This document shows, piece by piece, positions 45,889 to 52,884 of a stretch of 64,000 nt of DNA. Position 1 is the stretch's first letter. Every line of letters begins with the position of its first letter. The notes beneath the pieces were generated by a model. It did no database searches. It saw only the letters and a program-made list of their open reading frames with translations, and was not told where the DNA came from. The position numbers and the translations under genes were made by a program. Source of the stretch: Naegleria gruberi (lineage: Eukaryota); assembly GCA_000004985.1 (NCBI GenBank), contig GG738893.1, one strand, 5' to 3'.

Positions 45889-47445
45889 ATGAAGTTGACA
45901 TCTGCCATTGTCATGGCCATTTTGATGGCTGTGCTTTACGCTACATATGTTACCGCTTCCACAGATTCATTCGATGCATTGACAGATGCCATGGTCGAAG
46001 CAATCTATGCCAGAAGATTACCTAGATCTGGTGGAGGTGCCAGAGGTGGCTCAAGAGGAGGTGCCAGAGGAGGTGCTCGTGGAGGATCAAGAGGTGCTAG
46101 AGGAGGAGCCAGAGGTGGATCTCGTGGTGGTGCCAGAGGTGGTGCTAGAGGAGGTTCTCGTGGTGCCAGAGGTGGATCTAGAGGTGGTGCCAGAGGTGGT
46201 GCTAGAGGAGGAGCCAGAGGAGGATCAAGAGGTGGAAAAGCTGGTAAAGCTGGTAAAGGAGGTAGAGGTGGATCTAGAGGTGGTAAGGCCGGAAAGGGAG
46301 GAAAAGCTGGTAAAGGAGGAAAAGGAAAAGCTGGTAAGGGAGGAAAAGCTGGTAAAGGTGGAAAAGGAAAAGGTGGAAAAGCTGGTAAGGGAGGAAAAGG
46401 TAAAGGAAAAGGAGGTAAGGGTAAAGGTGGTAAAGGAAAAGGTGGAAAGGGAAAGAAGGATAAGAAGGGAAAGAAAGACAAGAAGGGAAAGAAGGATAAG
46501 AAAGATAAGAAGGGAAAGAAGGACAAGAAGGATAAGAATCAACAACAACAAGGTGGAGAACAAGGAGGTCAAGATGGTGGTCAACCAGGAGGTGAACAAC
46601 CACAACAACCAGAACAAGGAGGTGAACAACCACAACAACCTGAACAACCACAAGAACAACCACCAGTTGAACAACCACAACCTGAACAACCACAACAACC
46701 TGAACAAGCTCCAGTTGAACAACCACAACAACCTGAACAACAAGCTCAACCAGAACAAGCTCAACAACCTGAAGTTGCTCAACCACAAGCTCAAGAACAA
46801 CAACCACAAGCTCCAGTTGAACAAACTCAACAACCAGCTCAACAAGCTCCTGTTGAACAACAACCAATTGCTCAACAACCAGCTCAAGAACAAGCTCCAG
46901 TTGCTGCCCAACCTGTTCAAGAACAACCACAAGTTGCTCAACCTCAAGTTCAACAACCTGAAGTAGCTCAACAAGTTGCTCAAGAAGGTCCACAACCAAT
47001 TGCTCAACCTGATCAACCACAACCAGATCAACAAGTTGCTCAACAAAACCCAGACTTCCAACGTGCTCCACAATATGGTGACAAGCAAAGAATTGAATAC
47101 TTGAGAGGAATGATCAAGAAGAATATTTCCCCACAAGTTGCTCAACCAGAACAACAAGTTGCTCAACCTGAAGTAGCTCAACAAGAAGTTCCACAACCAA
47201 TTGCTCAACCTGATCAAGTTGCTCAACCAACTGAACAAACTCAACCAGCTAGAAGAACTAGAAAGTACAACAGAGGTGGTAACAGAAGAGGTACCAGAAG
47301 AAATCAATTCTCTCAAATTCCTGAATTTGGTAGATATTTCTTGGGTAATCAAGCTAAGGCTCAAAATGGTGATAACGATAGAATCAACTTTTTGAGAGGT
47401 TTGATTGATTTGCTCATTGCTCAAACTAAAGCTCAACAAAATTAA
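45889..47445 (+). CDS. Secreted, extremely repetitive low-complexity protein: signal peptide, (GGARGGSRGG)n, (GKAGKGGK)n, (KKDKKG)n, Q/P/E-rich (QPEQPQ, VAQPE)n, basic C-terminal region
   Basis: MKLTSAIVMAILMAVLYATYVTAS signal peptide. There are more than 14 RGG-type decapeptide repeats, then Gly-Lys repeats, then Lys-Asp repeats, then approx 250 aa of Gln/Pro/Glu repeats. Two RI(E/N)(Y/F)LRG(M/L)I motifs occur near the end. Confidence 0.6.
   Translation: MKLTSAIVMAILMAVLYATYVTASTDSFDALTDAMVEAIYARRLPRSGGGARGGSRGGARGGARGGSRGARGGARGGSRGGARGGARGGSRGARGGSRGGARGGARGGARGGSRGGKAGKAGKGGRGGSRGGKAGKGGKAGKGGKGKAGKGGKAGKGGKGKGGKAGKGGKGKGKGGKGKGGKGKGGKGKKDKKGKKDKKGKKDKKDKKGKKDKKDKNQQQQGGEQGGQDGGQPGGEQPQQPEQGGEQPQQPEQPQEQPPVEQPQPEQPQQPEQAPVEQPQQPEQQAQPEQAQQPEVAQPQAQEQQPQAPVEQTQQPAQQAPVEQQPIAQQPAQEQAPVAAQPVQEQPQVAQPQVQQPEVAQQVAQEGPQPIAQPDQPQPDQQVAQQNPDFQRAPQYGDKQRIEYLRGMIKKNISPQVAQPEQQVAQPEVAQQEVPQPIAQPDQVAQPTEQTQPARRTRKYNRGGNRRGTRRNQFSQIPEFGRYFLGNQAKAQNGDNDRINFLRGLIDLLIAQTKAQQN
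46020..47230 (+). repeat. Coding tandem repeat array (30-nt GGARGGSRGG units, GKAGKGG units, KKDKK units, QPEQ-type units)
   Basis: ggtgccagaggtggtgctagaggaggatcaaga-type periodicity is directly visible. This region generates many spurious overlapping ORFs on both strands. Confidence 0.7.
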
Positions 47446-47813: not shown

Positions 47814-47886
47814 CTCCCCCTGGTGGGCTCGAACCACCGACCTGCAGATTAACAGTCTGACGCTCTACCGACTGAGCTAAGGGGGA
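47814..47886 (-). tRNA. tRNA-Asn (anticodon GUU), 73 nt, no encoded CCA
   Basis: Minus-strand sequence TCCCCCTTAGCTCAGTCGGTAGAGCGTCAGACTGTTAATCTGCAGGTCGGTGGTTCGAGCCCACCAGGGGGAG. It folds as a 7-bp acceptor stem, D-arm GCTC/GAGC, anticodon loop CTGTTAA and T-arm GGTGG/TTCGAGC/CCACC. Confidence 0.85.
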
Positions 47887-49296: not shown

Positions 49297-50663
49297 ATGA
49301 CTTCTATTTTTAATTTTTTCAAGAGTGGAGGAGCCTATTCAAAGAGTAGTACTGGAGCAGTGACGAATAGTAGTAGTGAATCTTCATCTTCTTCTGATAC
49401 TAGTAATAATAATAGTAATAGTAATAATGGAACTCCTTTGAGTAATCCTCCGAGTGTTGATAATAACAATGTAAATAATGTATCACCGAATGTAAACACC
49501 ACCACCAATGAGCAAAAATCCATGACAAGTCAGATTGTTGAGGGAAAGAGCATGATTTTGTCAATTCAACCTGGAGAGAGACCACTTTTTGATTCTGTCG
49601 ATTTGGCAGAATTGATCAAGTTGAAGGAACATTTACAATACAAACCAAGTGTTTTGAATTTGATTGCTGTTTATCAGGCAGAGATTCAAAAACACGTCGA
49701 GTATGGTGTTAAAAAATCAAACAAGAAGGTGCAAAACTATCAGATTGAGCCAGCTCCAACAAACACAAAATATGTCTATCTCACATCATCTGGTTTGCCG
49801 GGAGTATTCTGTACAAATAATGATATGATTGATTATAGTCACTATCAAGCTATTTCGAAAGGAAGATGTGTTTCTCATTCTTTCGATTCACAAGAGTTAT
49901 CGAAAATTGAGGAAGTATTGAAAAAGCAAACCTCAATTTCAGAAAATTCAACAATTGTAAATAAGCGAAATGAATTGGAAAATTTAGAAAAGCAATACAC
50001 TCGATTGATGAAAGAAAAGGATAAATTATTGATCGATAGAGCAGCTGTTCTTTCACTTGAGGAATTGGCCATAATTGAAGCAGAGGAAGGTAGCATCAGA
50101 AGAACCAATGGAGAAGATAATGATGAATGGGAAATTGAAAGAAAGAAGAGAATTATAGAAAATGAAAGAAAATTGATTGAAAAAAGATTGGTCGAAGCTA
50201 AAAAGCACAAAAATGTTCGCTTCTACTGCAAGGGAGAATTAGACTATCTCACCAAATGGAATGACCACTTTGTCAAGACGAACAGTGAGACCACACCAAA
50301 AGGCGTAGACCAATTGCTGAGATACAATTTCAGTCCAACCAATGTCTTTGATTTAGGTGCAGAAGAGATTCACTTTAGATTTTGTGAATCCCAACTTCAT
50401 AGACTTGCCTCCTCTCCAATGTATGGCTCTTCTTATCCAACTGCCAGGGTCGTAAAGGTTGACTACATTGTCAATCCGGTTATTATGAAGAGATTTAATG
50501 CATGTAAGCAGGAATTGGCTGAAAAGCATGGCTTTATGCTTGAAAGTATGAAGCCATTGCTCTTATTCCATGGTACATCAGATGCCAATATGGAGAATAT
50601 CTTAAAGACCAATTTTTTATTGAACAAAATTGGAAGTACAACAGATATGGGATATTATGGAAA
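49297..50663 (+). CDS. PARP catalytic-domain protein, exon 1 (N-terminal S/N-rich region, coiled coil, start of ADP-ribosyltransferase domain)
   Basis: ATG at 49297. The C-terminal part LLLFHGTSDANMENILKTNF...GYYGK carries the H-G-T/S motif. Donor AA|GTAAGT at 50664. Confidence 0.6.
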
Positions 50664-50714
50664 GTAAGTTTCTTATTCTTATTTTGGATTTATTGACCTT
50701 TTTCTTAATAATAG

Positions 50715-50949
50715 AGGATTTTACTTTAGTGAATATCCTGGATTATCAATGGCCTATGCCAGAAATCAATATTTATTAATTTGTATGGTTTTGATTGGTA
50801 AGGCTTTCCACATGAATCAAGTAGAAACTGGTAGAGCTATCGAACCTGGCTATGATTCACACGTGGCTCCAGATGGTTGTAGTGAAGTTATTATTTTCAA
50901 TCCAGACCAAATCATTCCTCTTTACAAGATTGAATGGGCACAAAATTAG
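50715..50949 (+). CDS. PARP catalytic-domain protein, exon 2
   Basis: Acceptor aataatag at 50707–50714. The splice recreates YYGKGFYFSEYP (the Y-G-x-G-x-Y-F motif). The exon continues ...CSEVIIFNPDQIIPLYKIEW, which holds the candidate catalytic Glu. Stop at 50947–50949. Confidence 0.6.
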
Positions 50950-51022: not shown

Positions 51023-52884
51023 TTATGCAAAGAAATATTCCAATTTCACACTATTCTTTCCATTTACACAATTCAATTGAGAATGATCAATGAATGGTCT
51101 AGTCAACACTTGACCATTCAATACTACTTTAAGAATTTTTGGAGAATCTGGCTTAAAGTTATAAGATTCAATAGACAAGAAACAACCATTCTCTCTCTCC
51201 ACCTGAATACTCTCAAACAATGGAGATCCAACAAAATATTCACTAGAACCAGCTCTTGGATACAAACCAAGTGCTGACCACACAAACCATGCACTCATCG
51301 TTCCATAATCGTTATTTCCAGGCAAACCATCTGGATTCACACTGTATAATCTATCCATCATTTGTCTCACATAGTATTGAGTCAAATCTGCTCTGTCCAC
51401 ATAGTTAAACAAGTACATGCTCATTAGATCATGTTCATTTCCTCCCCAATAGAATGGATTTGGCAATACGGTGAATGGAAAGTCGAAGGAATCTTTTGCG
51501 AATTGTTCCAGTGCAGCAGTGAACTTTTCCTTTGATCCAAACAGGGAAATTAATCGTGGAATATCGTGTGGAACAAAGAATCTATAATGCCAGGCATCAC
51601 CTTCGACATTATAGATTATCGACTGTCCCATCCATCGGCAAATGTTAATTCTGGACAATTCCACTTTCCAGAAATTGATTTTGGACAGAAGAATTGTTCC
51701 TTCTCGTGCCACACATTCTTATAGAATTGAGAACGAGCAGTAAAGTTCAAATAGTCTGCAGTTTCGTTAAGGACCTTAGCAACGGAGGCAATGCATGAAT
51801 CTTCGTAGGAATAATCTAGAGTGAGAACTGCTCCAACTTGGGCAGATTCTTCTGGGACAAAACCAAGAGAATTATATTGAGCTGGATTGACTCTTCCAAC
51901 ATAATTGACTGGTTCATTAGATGTCTTTTTCATTGCTTGATACGTCTTTTGCATATTAATCTTTGAACTTCTCAATTGACCTTTTAGGAATGCTTCTGTA
52001 ATGATAACAATTGCATGATTTCCAACCATTGAACCAGTTTCTCCATTACAGAAAGGCCACTTTGGAAGGAAACCAACTTGATCATTGACTCTTATCAATG
52101 GTATGTGAAATATCCAAAATGATAAAAGATTCTTTCGATTGATCGTTGAAAGTATATCTGTGAATTCCAGAATAATAGCCACTGGTCAATTCTTCATCAA
52201 TGTCATATCTTTCCAAAGTAGTTCTGAAATAACCTGGTTGAACAAATTGAGTTTCCTTATTATAGGCCCTTACTTTTTTGTCTTTCAACAAGAAATCATA
52301 ACTCAATTCTCCCTTATATAGACAAACTGGCATTATTCCAATATTTCCCATATCTGGAATTCCTGCACCTACCAAACGCATATGTGAATGTAATCATCTG
52401 GATAGTAGAAACCACCTGGATGCTCAAAAGAAATCTCCAAATCGAAAGTATTAGTAGTATCAGGTCCAACTCTAATCATTCCATAAGGAGTTTGAGCCAT
52501 TGGACTCATGGTTCCAGAACCAAAGCCCTTGCCAGTTCCAATGAATGGATTCACGTATTTCATATTCTTGTTGCTGTCCTTCTTGAATTTTCTTCCACTC
52601 TTTCCGTTATGTTGTTGTTGAGTTTGTCCAAGATTGTCTGGATGGCCATGGACACGATTTTCCATATCTTGATGATCATCATGATGCATAATATTAATTG
52701 ATGGTTGCTTCATCATTTGTTGATGTGAATAAAACCTCATATTTTGTCTTGGTTGTTGCTGTTGATGATTCATCATTTGTATCATTCTTGATTCTACCAA
52801 CGTGATGATAACAATCAAAATGATCAATAGCATCTGCAGAAGAACATTCGTACGAATCGAACCATCTCTCATCTTCCTATTCAT
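51023..52884 (-). pseudogene. Glycoside hydrolase family 92 (alpha-1,2-mannosidase-like) gene with N-terminal signal peptide and His/Gln-rich region, interrupted by three frameshifts
   Basis: GH92 signatures: NPFIGTGKGFGSGTMSPMAQTPYGMIRVGPDT, NVEGDAWHYRFFVPHD, DYGTMSAWFVWSALGLYP. The protein is spread over 4 overlapping minus-strand ORFs (52369..52884, 52082..52381, 51616..52182, 51023..51712). Homology continues directly across the overlaps, so there is no room for introns. Confidence 0.6.

What the first reader, a model, noticed from the sequence alone, without database searches (positions are those of the whole stretch)
51023..52884. GH92 alpha-mannosidase gene with a signal peptide but three in-line frameshifts: a decaying, probably horizontally acquired gene
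GH92 is predominantly bacterial, with sporadic eukaryotic occurrences. Here the homology runs uninterrupted through four overlapping ORFs, so the frame changes cannot be introns. An example is the frameshift at ...FADGWDSR* / MGQSIIYNVEGDAWHY near 51616–51712. All neighbouring genes are intact, which argues against general sequence error.
Basis: partly seen in the sequence, partly recalled or inferred. Interest (0 to 1): 0.5.

Follow-up and report, generated by a model that had tools for sequence, protein, structure and literature searches.

The report
Broken GH92 mannosidase pseudogene in Naegleria
This is a recently disabled copy of an alpha-mannosidase gene (family GH92) in the amoeba Naegleria gruberi, broken by two small indels and one large internal deletion; it is an ordinary pseudogene, except that public databases list it as a 508-residue protein built with three invented introns.

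Summary
Window 51023-52884 (- strand) holds four overlapping ORFs, all homologous to GH92. They alternate between two reading frames.

The homology is not uninterrupted. Compared with an intact relative (locus L001), there are three lesions:
- a 10-nt deletion at about 52387;
- a deletion of about 200-245 codons plus a frame change at about 52092, which removes the end of the N-domain and the first quarter of the catalytic domain;
- an 8-nt insertion carrying a TAA stop at 51608-51618, one codon upstream of the Val-Glu that holds the catalytic acid.

None of these is a 1-bp homopolymer slip or a possible intron.

The window is Naegleria gruberi. The NCBI 'predicted protein' P0001 threads exactly through this locus using three false introns of 104, 97 and 23 nt. 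These remove conserved GH92 sequence.

Decay looks recent. There are no in-frame stops in 620 codons, dN/dS against the relative is 0.21-0.27, and there is no significant rate acceleration.

Recent horizontal acquisition is not supported. Base composition matches the neighbouring genes. The gene sits in a clade of eukaryote-labelled GH92s, apart from the labelled bacterial ones.

I had no read-level data and no second allele to examine. Verdict: an ordinary pseudogene, mis-annotated as a protein; low interest.

The parts
52792..52884 (-). Start codon and N-terminal basic plus hydrophobic segment (MNRKMRDGSIRTNVLLQMLLIILIVIITLVE), a signal peptide or signal anchor
   Evidence: ORF list. The Kyte-Doolittle 19-residue mean is 2.56 for aa 13-31. 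Intact homologues also start with hydrophobic N-termini. No dedicated signal-peptide predictor was available.
52387..52884 (-). Piece 1 (frame -2): N-terminal segment, His/Gln-rich linker, and start of the GH92 N-domain (MKYVNPFIGTG...YYPDDYI)
   Evidence: PF17678 positions 1-49, E = 6e-10. 73% identity to L001 aa 150-209.
52386..52388 (-). Lesion 1: a 10-nt deletion relative to the intact relative. It removes the codons for 'VAF' before the conserved SH..GAG motif and shifts the frame.
   Evidence: Nucleotide comparison: L001 has GATGATTACATTGTTGCATTTTCTCAT, the window has GATGATTACATTCACAT. tblastn pieces abut at 52387 in different frames.
52094..52387 (-). Piece 2 (frame -1): middle of the GH92 N-domain (SHMRLVGAGIPDMGNIG...ILDISHTID)
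   Evidence: PF17678 positions 55-149, E = 2e-17. 44% identity to L001 aa 213-313.
52088..52096 (-). Lesion 2: breakpoint of a large internal deletion (about 207 codons against Adineta P0004, about 244 against L001, about 198 Pfam positions) with a frame change
   Evidence: Homology jumps: P0004 190 to 398; L001 about 313 to about 558; Pfam N-domain 149 to catalytic domain 112. The missing segment is not found elsewhere in the window.
51619..52092 (-). Piece 3 (frame -2): catalytic-domain segment (NDQVGFLPKWPF...FADGWDSR)
   Evidence: PF07971 positions 112-260, E = 2e-34. 66% identity to L001 aa 554-714.
51608..51618 (-). Lesion 3: TAATCTATAAT where the relative has TAT. This is a net 8-nt insertion that opens with an in-frame TAA stop and shifts the frame.
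   Evidence: Nucleotide comparison with the L001 coding sequence. tblastn pieces end at 51619 and resume at 51607.
51023..51607 (-). Piece 4 (frame -1): C-terminal part of the catalytic domain through the native stop codon (VEGDAWHY...LEYFFA*)
   Evidence: PF07971 positions 272-452, E = 3e-54. 62% identity to L001 aa 716-908. Matches PDB GH92 chains such as 2wvx/2wzs at E = 1e-26.
51602..51604 (-). GAA codon equivalent to the general acid Glu533 of Bt3990. It is retained, but lies just downstream of lesion 3.
   Evidence: Alignment to 2wzs_A, TEGNSWHY against VEGDAWHY. Coordinates. Residue roles from PMC10167667.
51308..51310 (-). GAT codon equivalent to the general base Asp644 of Bt3990 (GNNDYG against GDEDNG). 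The Asp642 equivalent is Asn (51314-51316), as in the intact eukaryotic relatives.
   Evidence: Alignment. Coordinates. L001 also has GNNDYG, Adineta has GNDDYG and Pelomyxa has GNEDYG.
52269..52372 (-). False intron 1 (104 nt) of the public gene model P0001. It removes conserved GH92 N-domain sequence (VGAGIPDMGNIGIMP...).
   Evidence: Exact threading of P0001 through the window. The removed sequence aligns to L001.
51993..52089 (-). False intron 2 (97 nt) of P0001. It removes NDQVGFLPKWPFCNGETGSMVGNHAIVIITEA, one of the best-conserved stretches.
51601..51623 (-). False intron 3 (23 nt) of P0001. It removes lesion 3 together with the catalytic-acid Glu codon.
   Evidence: For contrast, the real intron of the neighbouring gene is 51 nt (GTAAGT..AATAG, GC 0.22), and the L001 intron is 46 nt.

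Best explanation
The locus is a non-functional remnant (pseudogene) of a secreted or membrane-anchored GH92 alpha-mannosidase gene in the nuclear genome of Naegleria gruberi.

The ancestral gene encoded an N-terminal hydrophobic targeting segment, a low-complexity linker, the GH92 N-domain and the GH92 catalytic domain. An unnamed Naegleria-like relative still has this gene intact (L001).

Three mutations disabled the N. gruberi copy:
- a 10-nt deletion in the N-domain;
- a deletion of about 0.6-0.7 kb spanning the domain boundary;
- an 8-nt insertion with a stop codon just before the catalytic-acid motif.

Inactivation is recent. The remaining 620 codons are still stop-free, still encode the catalytic Glu and Asp, and show the signature of past purifying selection.

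The public 508-aa 'predicted protein' is a gene-prediction artefact that splices around the lesions.

Shown here: the homology, the lesions, the identity with the public model, and the intact relative. Inferred: that no functional product is made, and that the lesions are real in the organism rather than in the assembly.
For: - GH92 homology of all four pieces.
- Exact nature of the lesions against the intact L001 coding sequence: a 10-nt deletion, about 244 codons deleted, and an 8-nt insertion with TAA.
- P0001, labelled Naegleria gruberi, threads through the window at 100% identity using 'introns' of 104, 97 and 23 nt that delete conserved coding sequence, including the catalytic Glu.
- Real introns in this lineage look different. 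The neighbouring gene's intron is 51 nt, GTAAGT..AATAG, GC 0.22; the L001 intron is 46 nt, GTTAGT..AACAG.
- The L001 GH92 is intact: 909 aa with one canonical intron.
- There are no in-frame stops in 620 codons, although 5.1% of random substitutions would create one. P(no stop) falls below 0.05 beyond about 60 substitutions, or about 3% divergence.
- dN/dS against L001 is 0.21-0.27, and third positions are the most diverged.
- Relative-rate tests are not significant, with chi-square 0.05-1.1.
- The neighbours have long intact ORFs.
- The region lost at lesion 2 covers Pfam N-domain positions 150-236 and catalytic-domain positions 1-111. No frame repair could restore a folded enzyme.
Against: - No read-level or independent-assembly evidence was available. 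The window appears to be the same assembly on which P0001 was modelled, so that agreement is not independent.
- Exact look-ups of P0001 and two of the ORF products found no other contig. A metagenome scan for the junction-3 flanks found nothing.
- I saw no expression data.
- An intact second allele, or a distant paralogue elsewhere in the genome, cannot be excluded. Only the top 120 of 2987 hits were visible, and no other Naegleria protein was among them.
Confidence: 0.85

Rival explanations
1. Assembly or sequencing artefact: the organism has an intact GH92 gene, and the three lesions were introduced during sequencing or assembly.
For: No read-level data could be examined. No independent contig carries the locus. 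The remaining codons look fully coding, with no stops and low dN/dS, which is also what an intact gene would show.
Against: The lesions are 10 nt, about 0.7 kb and 8 nt. They are not the 1-bp homopolymer errors typical of sequencing noise. Three independent multi-base errors in 1.9 kb contrast with long uninterrupted ORFs in all neighbours. No repeat that could collapse the missing 0.7 kb was seen in the region; the only tandem repeat call inside the gene is a trivial 18-nt unit at 51038-51074.
Confidence: 0.06
2. The frame changes are bridged by real splicing, as in the public model P0001. This would give a functional 508-aa GH92-derived protein.
For: The model's three intervals begin with GT and end with AG. 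A protein of this sequence is deposited in NCBI and UniProt.
Against: The 'introns' encode GH92 sequence that aligns in frame to the intact relative. One is among the most conserved stretches of the family, and one contains the catalytic-acid Glu. One 'intron' is 23 nt. Their GC (0.34-0.38) is coding-like, against 0.22 for a genuine neighbouring intron, and they lack its GTAAGT start. Even when spliced, the product lacks about 200 residues across both domains.
Confidence: 0.03
3. A recent horizontal transfer from bacteria that failed to establish and is decaying.
For: GH92 is best known from bacteria (PMC12858847). The family is patchy in Heterolobosea: no N. fowleri, N. lovaniensis or Willaertia protein appears among the top 120 hits.
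Against: - GC and GC3 are indistinguishable from the neighbouring genes.
- The N-terminus and linker are typical eukaryotic low-complexity sequence.
- The nearest relative is an intron-containing eukaryotic gene at 62-73% identity.
- The next nearest named hits are bdelloid rotifers, Pelomyxa, Arcella and EukProt transcriptomes at 40-48%.
- The labelled bacteria reach only 33-37% identity and fall on the other side of a split found in 200 of 200 bootstrap replicates.
Confidence: 0.05

Closest known systems
GH92 Ca2+-dependent exo-alpha-mannosidases (for example Bacteroides thetaiotaomicron Bt3990, PDB 2WVX/2WZS)
   Same: The domain types are the same (PF17678 plus PF07971). The motifs TEGNSWHY/VEGDAWHY (general acid Glu533) and GDEDNG/GNNDYG (general base Asp644) align.
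   Different: About 200 residues across the domain boundary are missing, and the reading frame is broken three times. The Asp642 equivalent is Asn, a feature shared with intact eukaryotic relatives.
Intact GH92 on L001 (Logan assembly of SRR15442445, an unnamed Naegleria/Willaertia-like heterolobosean)
   Same: It is the closest relative: 62-73% amino-acid and about 70% nucleotide identity. It is the sister sequence in 200 of 200 bootstraps and has a similar hydrophobic N-terminus and similar GC.
   Different: It is intact: 909 aa with one 46-nt GT..AG intron. Its flanking genes (an MFS transporter and a DUSP11-like phosphatase) are not in the window, so the loci are not demonstrably syntenic.
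NCBI/UniProt 'predicted protein [Naegleria gruberi]' (P0001, 508 aa)
   Same: It derives from exactly this DNA. All four exons match at 100%.
   Different: It is a model that skips the lesions with three non-credible introns and starts at an internal Met (52773). It should be flagged as a pseudogene.
Fungal GH92 enzymes (for example Aspergillus nidulans AnGH92A)
   Same: They are eukaryotic GH92s, some with predicted signal peptides, and they conserve the Glu/Asp catalytic pair (PMC12858847).
   Different: I did not compare them here. The nearest named relatives of the Naegleria gene are protist and bdelloid-rotifer proteins, not fungal ones.

Membership tests
GH92 alpha-mannosidase (homology) | Significant match to the GH92 N-terminal domain (PF17678) and the GH92 catalytic domain (PF07971) | tested here: met
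   All four pieces score above the Pfam gathering cut-offs: 39.7 and 64.3 bits against 34.5, and 119.8 and 185.3 bits against 24.6. PDB GH92 chains match at E = 1e-26.
GH92 alpha-mannosidase (functional enzyme) | Complete two-domain architecture in one open reading frame | tested here: not met
   Pfam N-domain positions 150-236 and catalytic-domain positions 1-111 are absent. The frames run -2, -1, -2, -1, and there is a TAA at lesion 3.
GH92 alpha-mannosidase (functional enzyme) | General acid Glu (Glu533 of Bt3990) and general base Asp (Asp644) | tested here: met
   The codons are retained: GAA at 51602-51604 and GAT at 51308-51310. Residue roles are from PMC10167667. They cannot be translated together with the N-terminal part.
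GH92 alpha-mannosidase (functional enzyme) | Second base/Ca2+-site Asp (Asp642 of Bt3990) | tested here: not met
   This position is Asn (GNNDYG). The same is true in intact L001, Adineta (GNDDYG) and Pelomyxa (GNEDYG), so it is a feature of the clade and not a sign of decay.
GH92 alpha-mannosidase (functional enzyme) | Ca2+-dependent exo-alpha-mannosidase activity | not testable with these tools
   This needs biochemistry.
Unitary (non-processed) pseudogene | Clear homology to a functional gene, plus disabling lesions that splicing cannot remove | tested here: met
   A 10-nt deletion, a deletion of about 0.7 kb and an 8-nt insertion with a stop, all relative to intact L001. The model introns are not credible.
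Unitary (non-processed) pseudogene | No functional copy remains in the genome | tested here: inconclusive
   P0001 is the only Naegleria-labelled protein among the top 120 of 2987 hits. The whole genome, a second allele and distant paralogues could not be searched.
Processed (retro-)pseudogene | Intron loss, a poly-A tract after the 3' end, and no native 5' region | tested here: inconclusive
   There is no long poly-A run after the stop codon, and the native start with its targeting segment is present. However, the one intron position known from L001 lies inside the deleted segment, so intron loss cannot be judged.
Recent bacterial HGT | Atypical composition and nesting within a bacterial clade | tested here: not met
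   GC is 0.367 and GC3 is 0.308, within the range of the neighbours. The sequence groups with eukaryote-labelled sequences in 200 of 200 replicates. The tree is NJ only, and the sample is limited to the top hits.

The most novel reading that the evidence does not exclude
Naegleria gruberi is caught in the act of losing a member of an under-recognised GH92 clade. This clade spans several eukaryotic supergroups: Heterolobosea, Amoebozoa, jakobids, choanoflagellates and bdelloid rotifers. A 2026 paper states that among eukaryotes GH92 occurs only in fungi. If the clade is ancient, the patchy distribution within Heterolobosea would reflect repeated loss of an old eukaryotic lysosomal or secreted mannosidase. 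That distribution is: intact in the L001 organism, a pseudogene in N. gruberi, and no hit seen for N. fowleri, N. lovaniensis or Willaertia. It would then not reflect horizontal transfer.
Probability: 0.4. Interest if true: 0.3.

Novelty: new member of a known kind. Interest (0 to 1): 0.15.

Why it matters
The main value is for curation. A public 'predicted protein' of a model amoeba is really a pseudogene, and its sequence lacks conserved segments because of invented introns. That can mislead CAZyme counts, orthology tables and HGT screens.

As a minor point, it gives a dated-by-eye example of very recent gene loss in Naegleria. It also shows that GH92 enzymes are present in many non-fungal eukaryotes, contrary to a recent statement in the literature (PMC12858847).

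Tried and rejected
- Tiny introns as an explanation of the frame changes. Rejected because junction 3 is an 11-nt stretch replacing 3 nt, junction 1 is a net loss of sequence, and junction 2 lacks about 200 codons.
- Homopolymer or 1-bp sequencing errors. Rejected for the same reason.
- Relocation of the missing segment within the window. tblastn at E <= 10 gave only chance hits.
- Independent confirmation from other assemblies. Exact-product look-ups for P0001 and for two of the ORFs found nothing. A metagenome scan for the junction-3 flanks with a variable gap found nothing.
- Literature on Naegleria GH92. One paper holds both terms, on thraustochytrid genomes, and I did not open it. The run accession SRR15442445 is not mentioned in any paper searched.
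- Synteny between L001 and the window. Only the GH92 matches.
- Rate acceleration in the pseudogene lineage. Not significant.
- Compositional anomaly as a sign of HGT. None found.
- Structure prediction. Not run, because the sequence-level evidence was decisive.

Full report
**What is there**

On the - strand between 51023 and 52884 there are four overlapping ORFs of 171, 99, 188 and 229 aa. Each one matches a GH92 Pfam model above its curated threshold:
- The first two cover positions 1-49 and 55-149 of the 236-position N-terminal domain model (PF17678).
- The last two cover positions 112-260 and 272-452 of the 464-position catalytic-domain model (PF07971).

The last piece also matches solved bacterial GH92 structures (2WVX/2WZS and others) at E = 1e-26. 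tblastn with intact GH92 proteins finds these four pieces and nothing else in the 64-kb window, in frames -2, -1, -2, -1.

**Source organism and the public annotation**

A search of the protein collection with the concatenated pieces returned one near-identical entry, P0001. It is a 508-aa 'predicted protein [Naegleria gruberi]'.

Threading P0001 through the window reproduces it exactly as four exons: 52773-52373, 52268-52090, 51992-51624 and 51600-51023. The exons are joined by GT..AG intervals of 104, 97 and 23 nt. So the window is N. gruberi nuclear DNA, and the deposited protein was modelled on this same sequence.

The three 'introns' are not credible:
- They consist of GH92 coding sequence that aligns in frame to intact relatives. 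One is NDQVGFLPKWPF...GNHA, among the best-conserved stretches. The 23-nt one removes the catalytic-acid Glu.
- Their GC is 0.34-0.38, like coding sequence.
- A genuine intron in the adjacent PARP-like gene is 51 nt, GTAAGT..AATAG, with GC 0.22. The intron in the relative's GH92 is 46 nt, GTTAGT..AACAG.

**The lesions**

The best reference is L001, a 6-kb Logan contig from run SRR15442445. It carries an intact GH92 of 909 aa, interrupted only by one canonical 46-nt intron. It is 62-73% identical in protein and about 70% identical in DNA to the window pieces.

Its flanking genes have Naegleria lovaniensis (49%) and Willaertia magna (41%) as their best named hits. The contig therefore comes from an unnamed heterolobosean close to Naegleria.

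Against this reference:
- **Junction 1 (about 52387)** is a 10-nt deletion. It removes the codons for 'VAF' before the conserved SH..GAG motif.
- **Junction 2 (about 52092)** is a large deletion with a frame change. Homology jumps from L001 residue about 313 to about 558. Equivalently, it jumps from residue 190 to 398 of Adineta P0004, and from Pfam N-domain position 149 to catalytic-domain position 112.
- **Junction 3 (51608-51618)** has TAATCTATAAT where the relative has TAT. This is a net 8-nt insertion that opens with a TAA stop. It lies immediately upstream of VEGDAWHY, which holds the equivalent of the Bt3990 general acid Glu533.

About 200-245 codons are gone, and they are not elsewhere in the window. 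None of the lesions is a 1-bp homopolymer change, and none can be an intron.

**Is it a dead gene, and for how long?**

The large deletion removes the end of the N-domain and the first quarter of the catalytic domain. No frame correction could yield a complete enzyme, which argues strongly against function.

Apart from the three lesions, however, the sequence still looks like a gene:
- The 620 homologous codons contain no stop, although the other two frames of this region (where not the homologous frame) carry 20-48 stops. In addition, 5.1% of random substitutions would create a stop. P(no stop) drops below 0.05 after about 60 substitutions, or about 3% divergence.
- dN/dS against L001 is 0.21-0.27, and the third codon position is the most diverged.
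- Relative-rate tests against four outgroups show no significant excess of changes on the N. gruberi branch, with chi-square 0.05-1.1.
- The catalytic Glu and the Asp644 equivalent are retained. The Asp642 equivalent is Asn, but the same holds in the intact eukaryotic relatives.

Together this indicates recent inactivation of a gene that was long under purifying selection.

**Horizontal transfer?**

The gene's GC (0.367) and GC3 (0.308) lie within the range of eight other ORFs in the window.

The nearest named relatives after L001 are all eukaryotic. They include bdelloid rotifers, Pelomyxa, Arcella, EukProt transcriptomes, Andalucia and Salpingoeca, most at 40-48% identity. The named bacterial hits (Myxococcota, Bacteroidota) have 33-37% identity.

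A neighbour-joining tree of the top hits places window plus L001 as sisters inside the eukaryote-labelled group. With 200 bootstrap replicates on the labelled subset:
- the sister pairing appears 200 times out of 200;
- the split between labelled eukaryotes and labelled bacteria also appears 200 times out of 200.

The caveats are that this is NJ only, that only the top 120 hits were available, and that many metagenome sequences carry no label. A recent bacterial acquisition is not supported. An ancient bacterial origin of the whole eukaryotic clade is untested.

Within Heterolobosea the gene is patchy. No N. fowleri, N. lovaniensis or W. magna protein appears among the top 120 hits. This fits ongoing loss.

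**Sequence error?**

Neighbouring genes have long intact frames with domain hits. The lesions are multi-base. Even so, I could not obtain independent sequence. Exact look-ups of P0001 and of two ORF products returned nothing, and a metagenome scan for the junction-3 flanks found nothing. Read-level confirmation and the state of a possible second allele remain open.

**Comparison with what is known, and verdict**

By homology this is a member of family GH92. It fails the tests for a functional member, because its architecture is incomplete and its frame is broken. The best description is a recently formed, apparently unitary pseudogene that is deposited in public databases as a protein.

I found no literature on it. 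A 2026 paper states that among eukaryotes GH92 occurs only in fungi (PMC12858847). The hit list here shows otherwise, which is a small side observation.

Overall the finding is ordinary. I score interest at 0.15 and rate novelty as a new member of a known kind.

Noticed in passing
window 51023-52773 (-), exons 52773-52373, 52268-52090, 51992-51624, 51600-51023: The public N. gruberi 'predicted protein' P0001 (508 aa) is a gene model that bridges the pseudogene lesions with three non-credible introns of 104, 97 and 23 nt. It should be re-annotated as a pseudogene.
   Followed up: yes
L001 819-3594 (+): A Logan contig from run SRR15442445 carries an intact 909-aa GH92 with one 46-nt GT..AG intron. 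It is flanked by an MFS transporter and a DUSP11-like phosphatase. The best named hits of these neighbours are Willaertia magna (41%) and Naegleria lovaniensis (49%), so the organism is an unnamed Naegleria-like heterolobosean. Gene callers split the GH92 into two products (548 and 377 aa) at the intron.
   Followed up: partly
hit list; trees: GH92 proteins are labelled from Pelomyxa, Arcella, Andalucia, Salpingoeca, many bdelloid rotifers and several EukProt transcriptomes. Among the top hits they separate from the labelled bacteria. This contradicts the statement in PMC12858847 that GH92 occurs only in fungi among eukaryotes.
   Followed up: partly
window 45889-47445 (+): A 518-aa ORF has a hydrophobic N-terminus followed by long RGG/KGG/KKD repeats and Pro-Glu-Gln-rich repeats. 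Locally GC rises to 0.42 and AT skew to 0.30, and long ORFs overlap on the opposite strand because of the repeats. It has no Pfam hit.
   Followed up: no
window 49297-50949 (+): A PARP-like gene is split by a genuine 51-nt intron (50664-50714, GTAAGT..AATAG, GC 0.22) that joins ...YYGK to GFYFSEYP... The Pfam PARP match is weak (20.4 bits, below the 26.7 cut-off).
   Followed up: partly
window 47814-47886 (-): A single tRNA-Asn (GTT) gene lies between the repeat-protein gene and the PARP-like gene.
   Followed up: no
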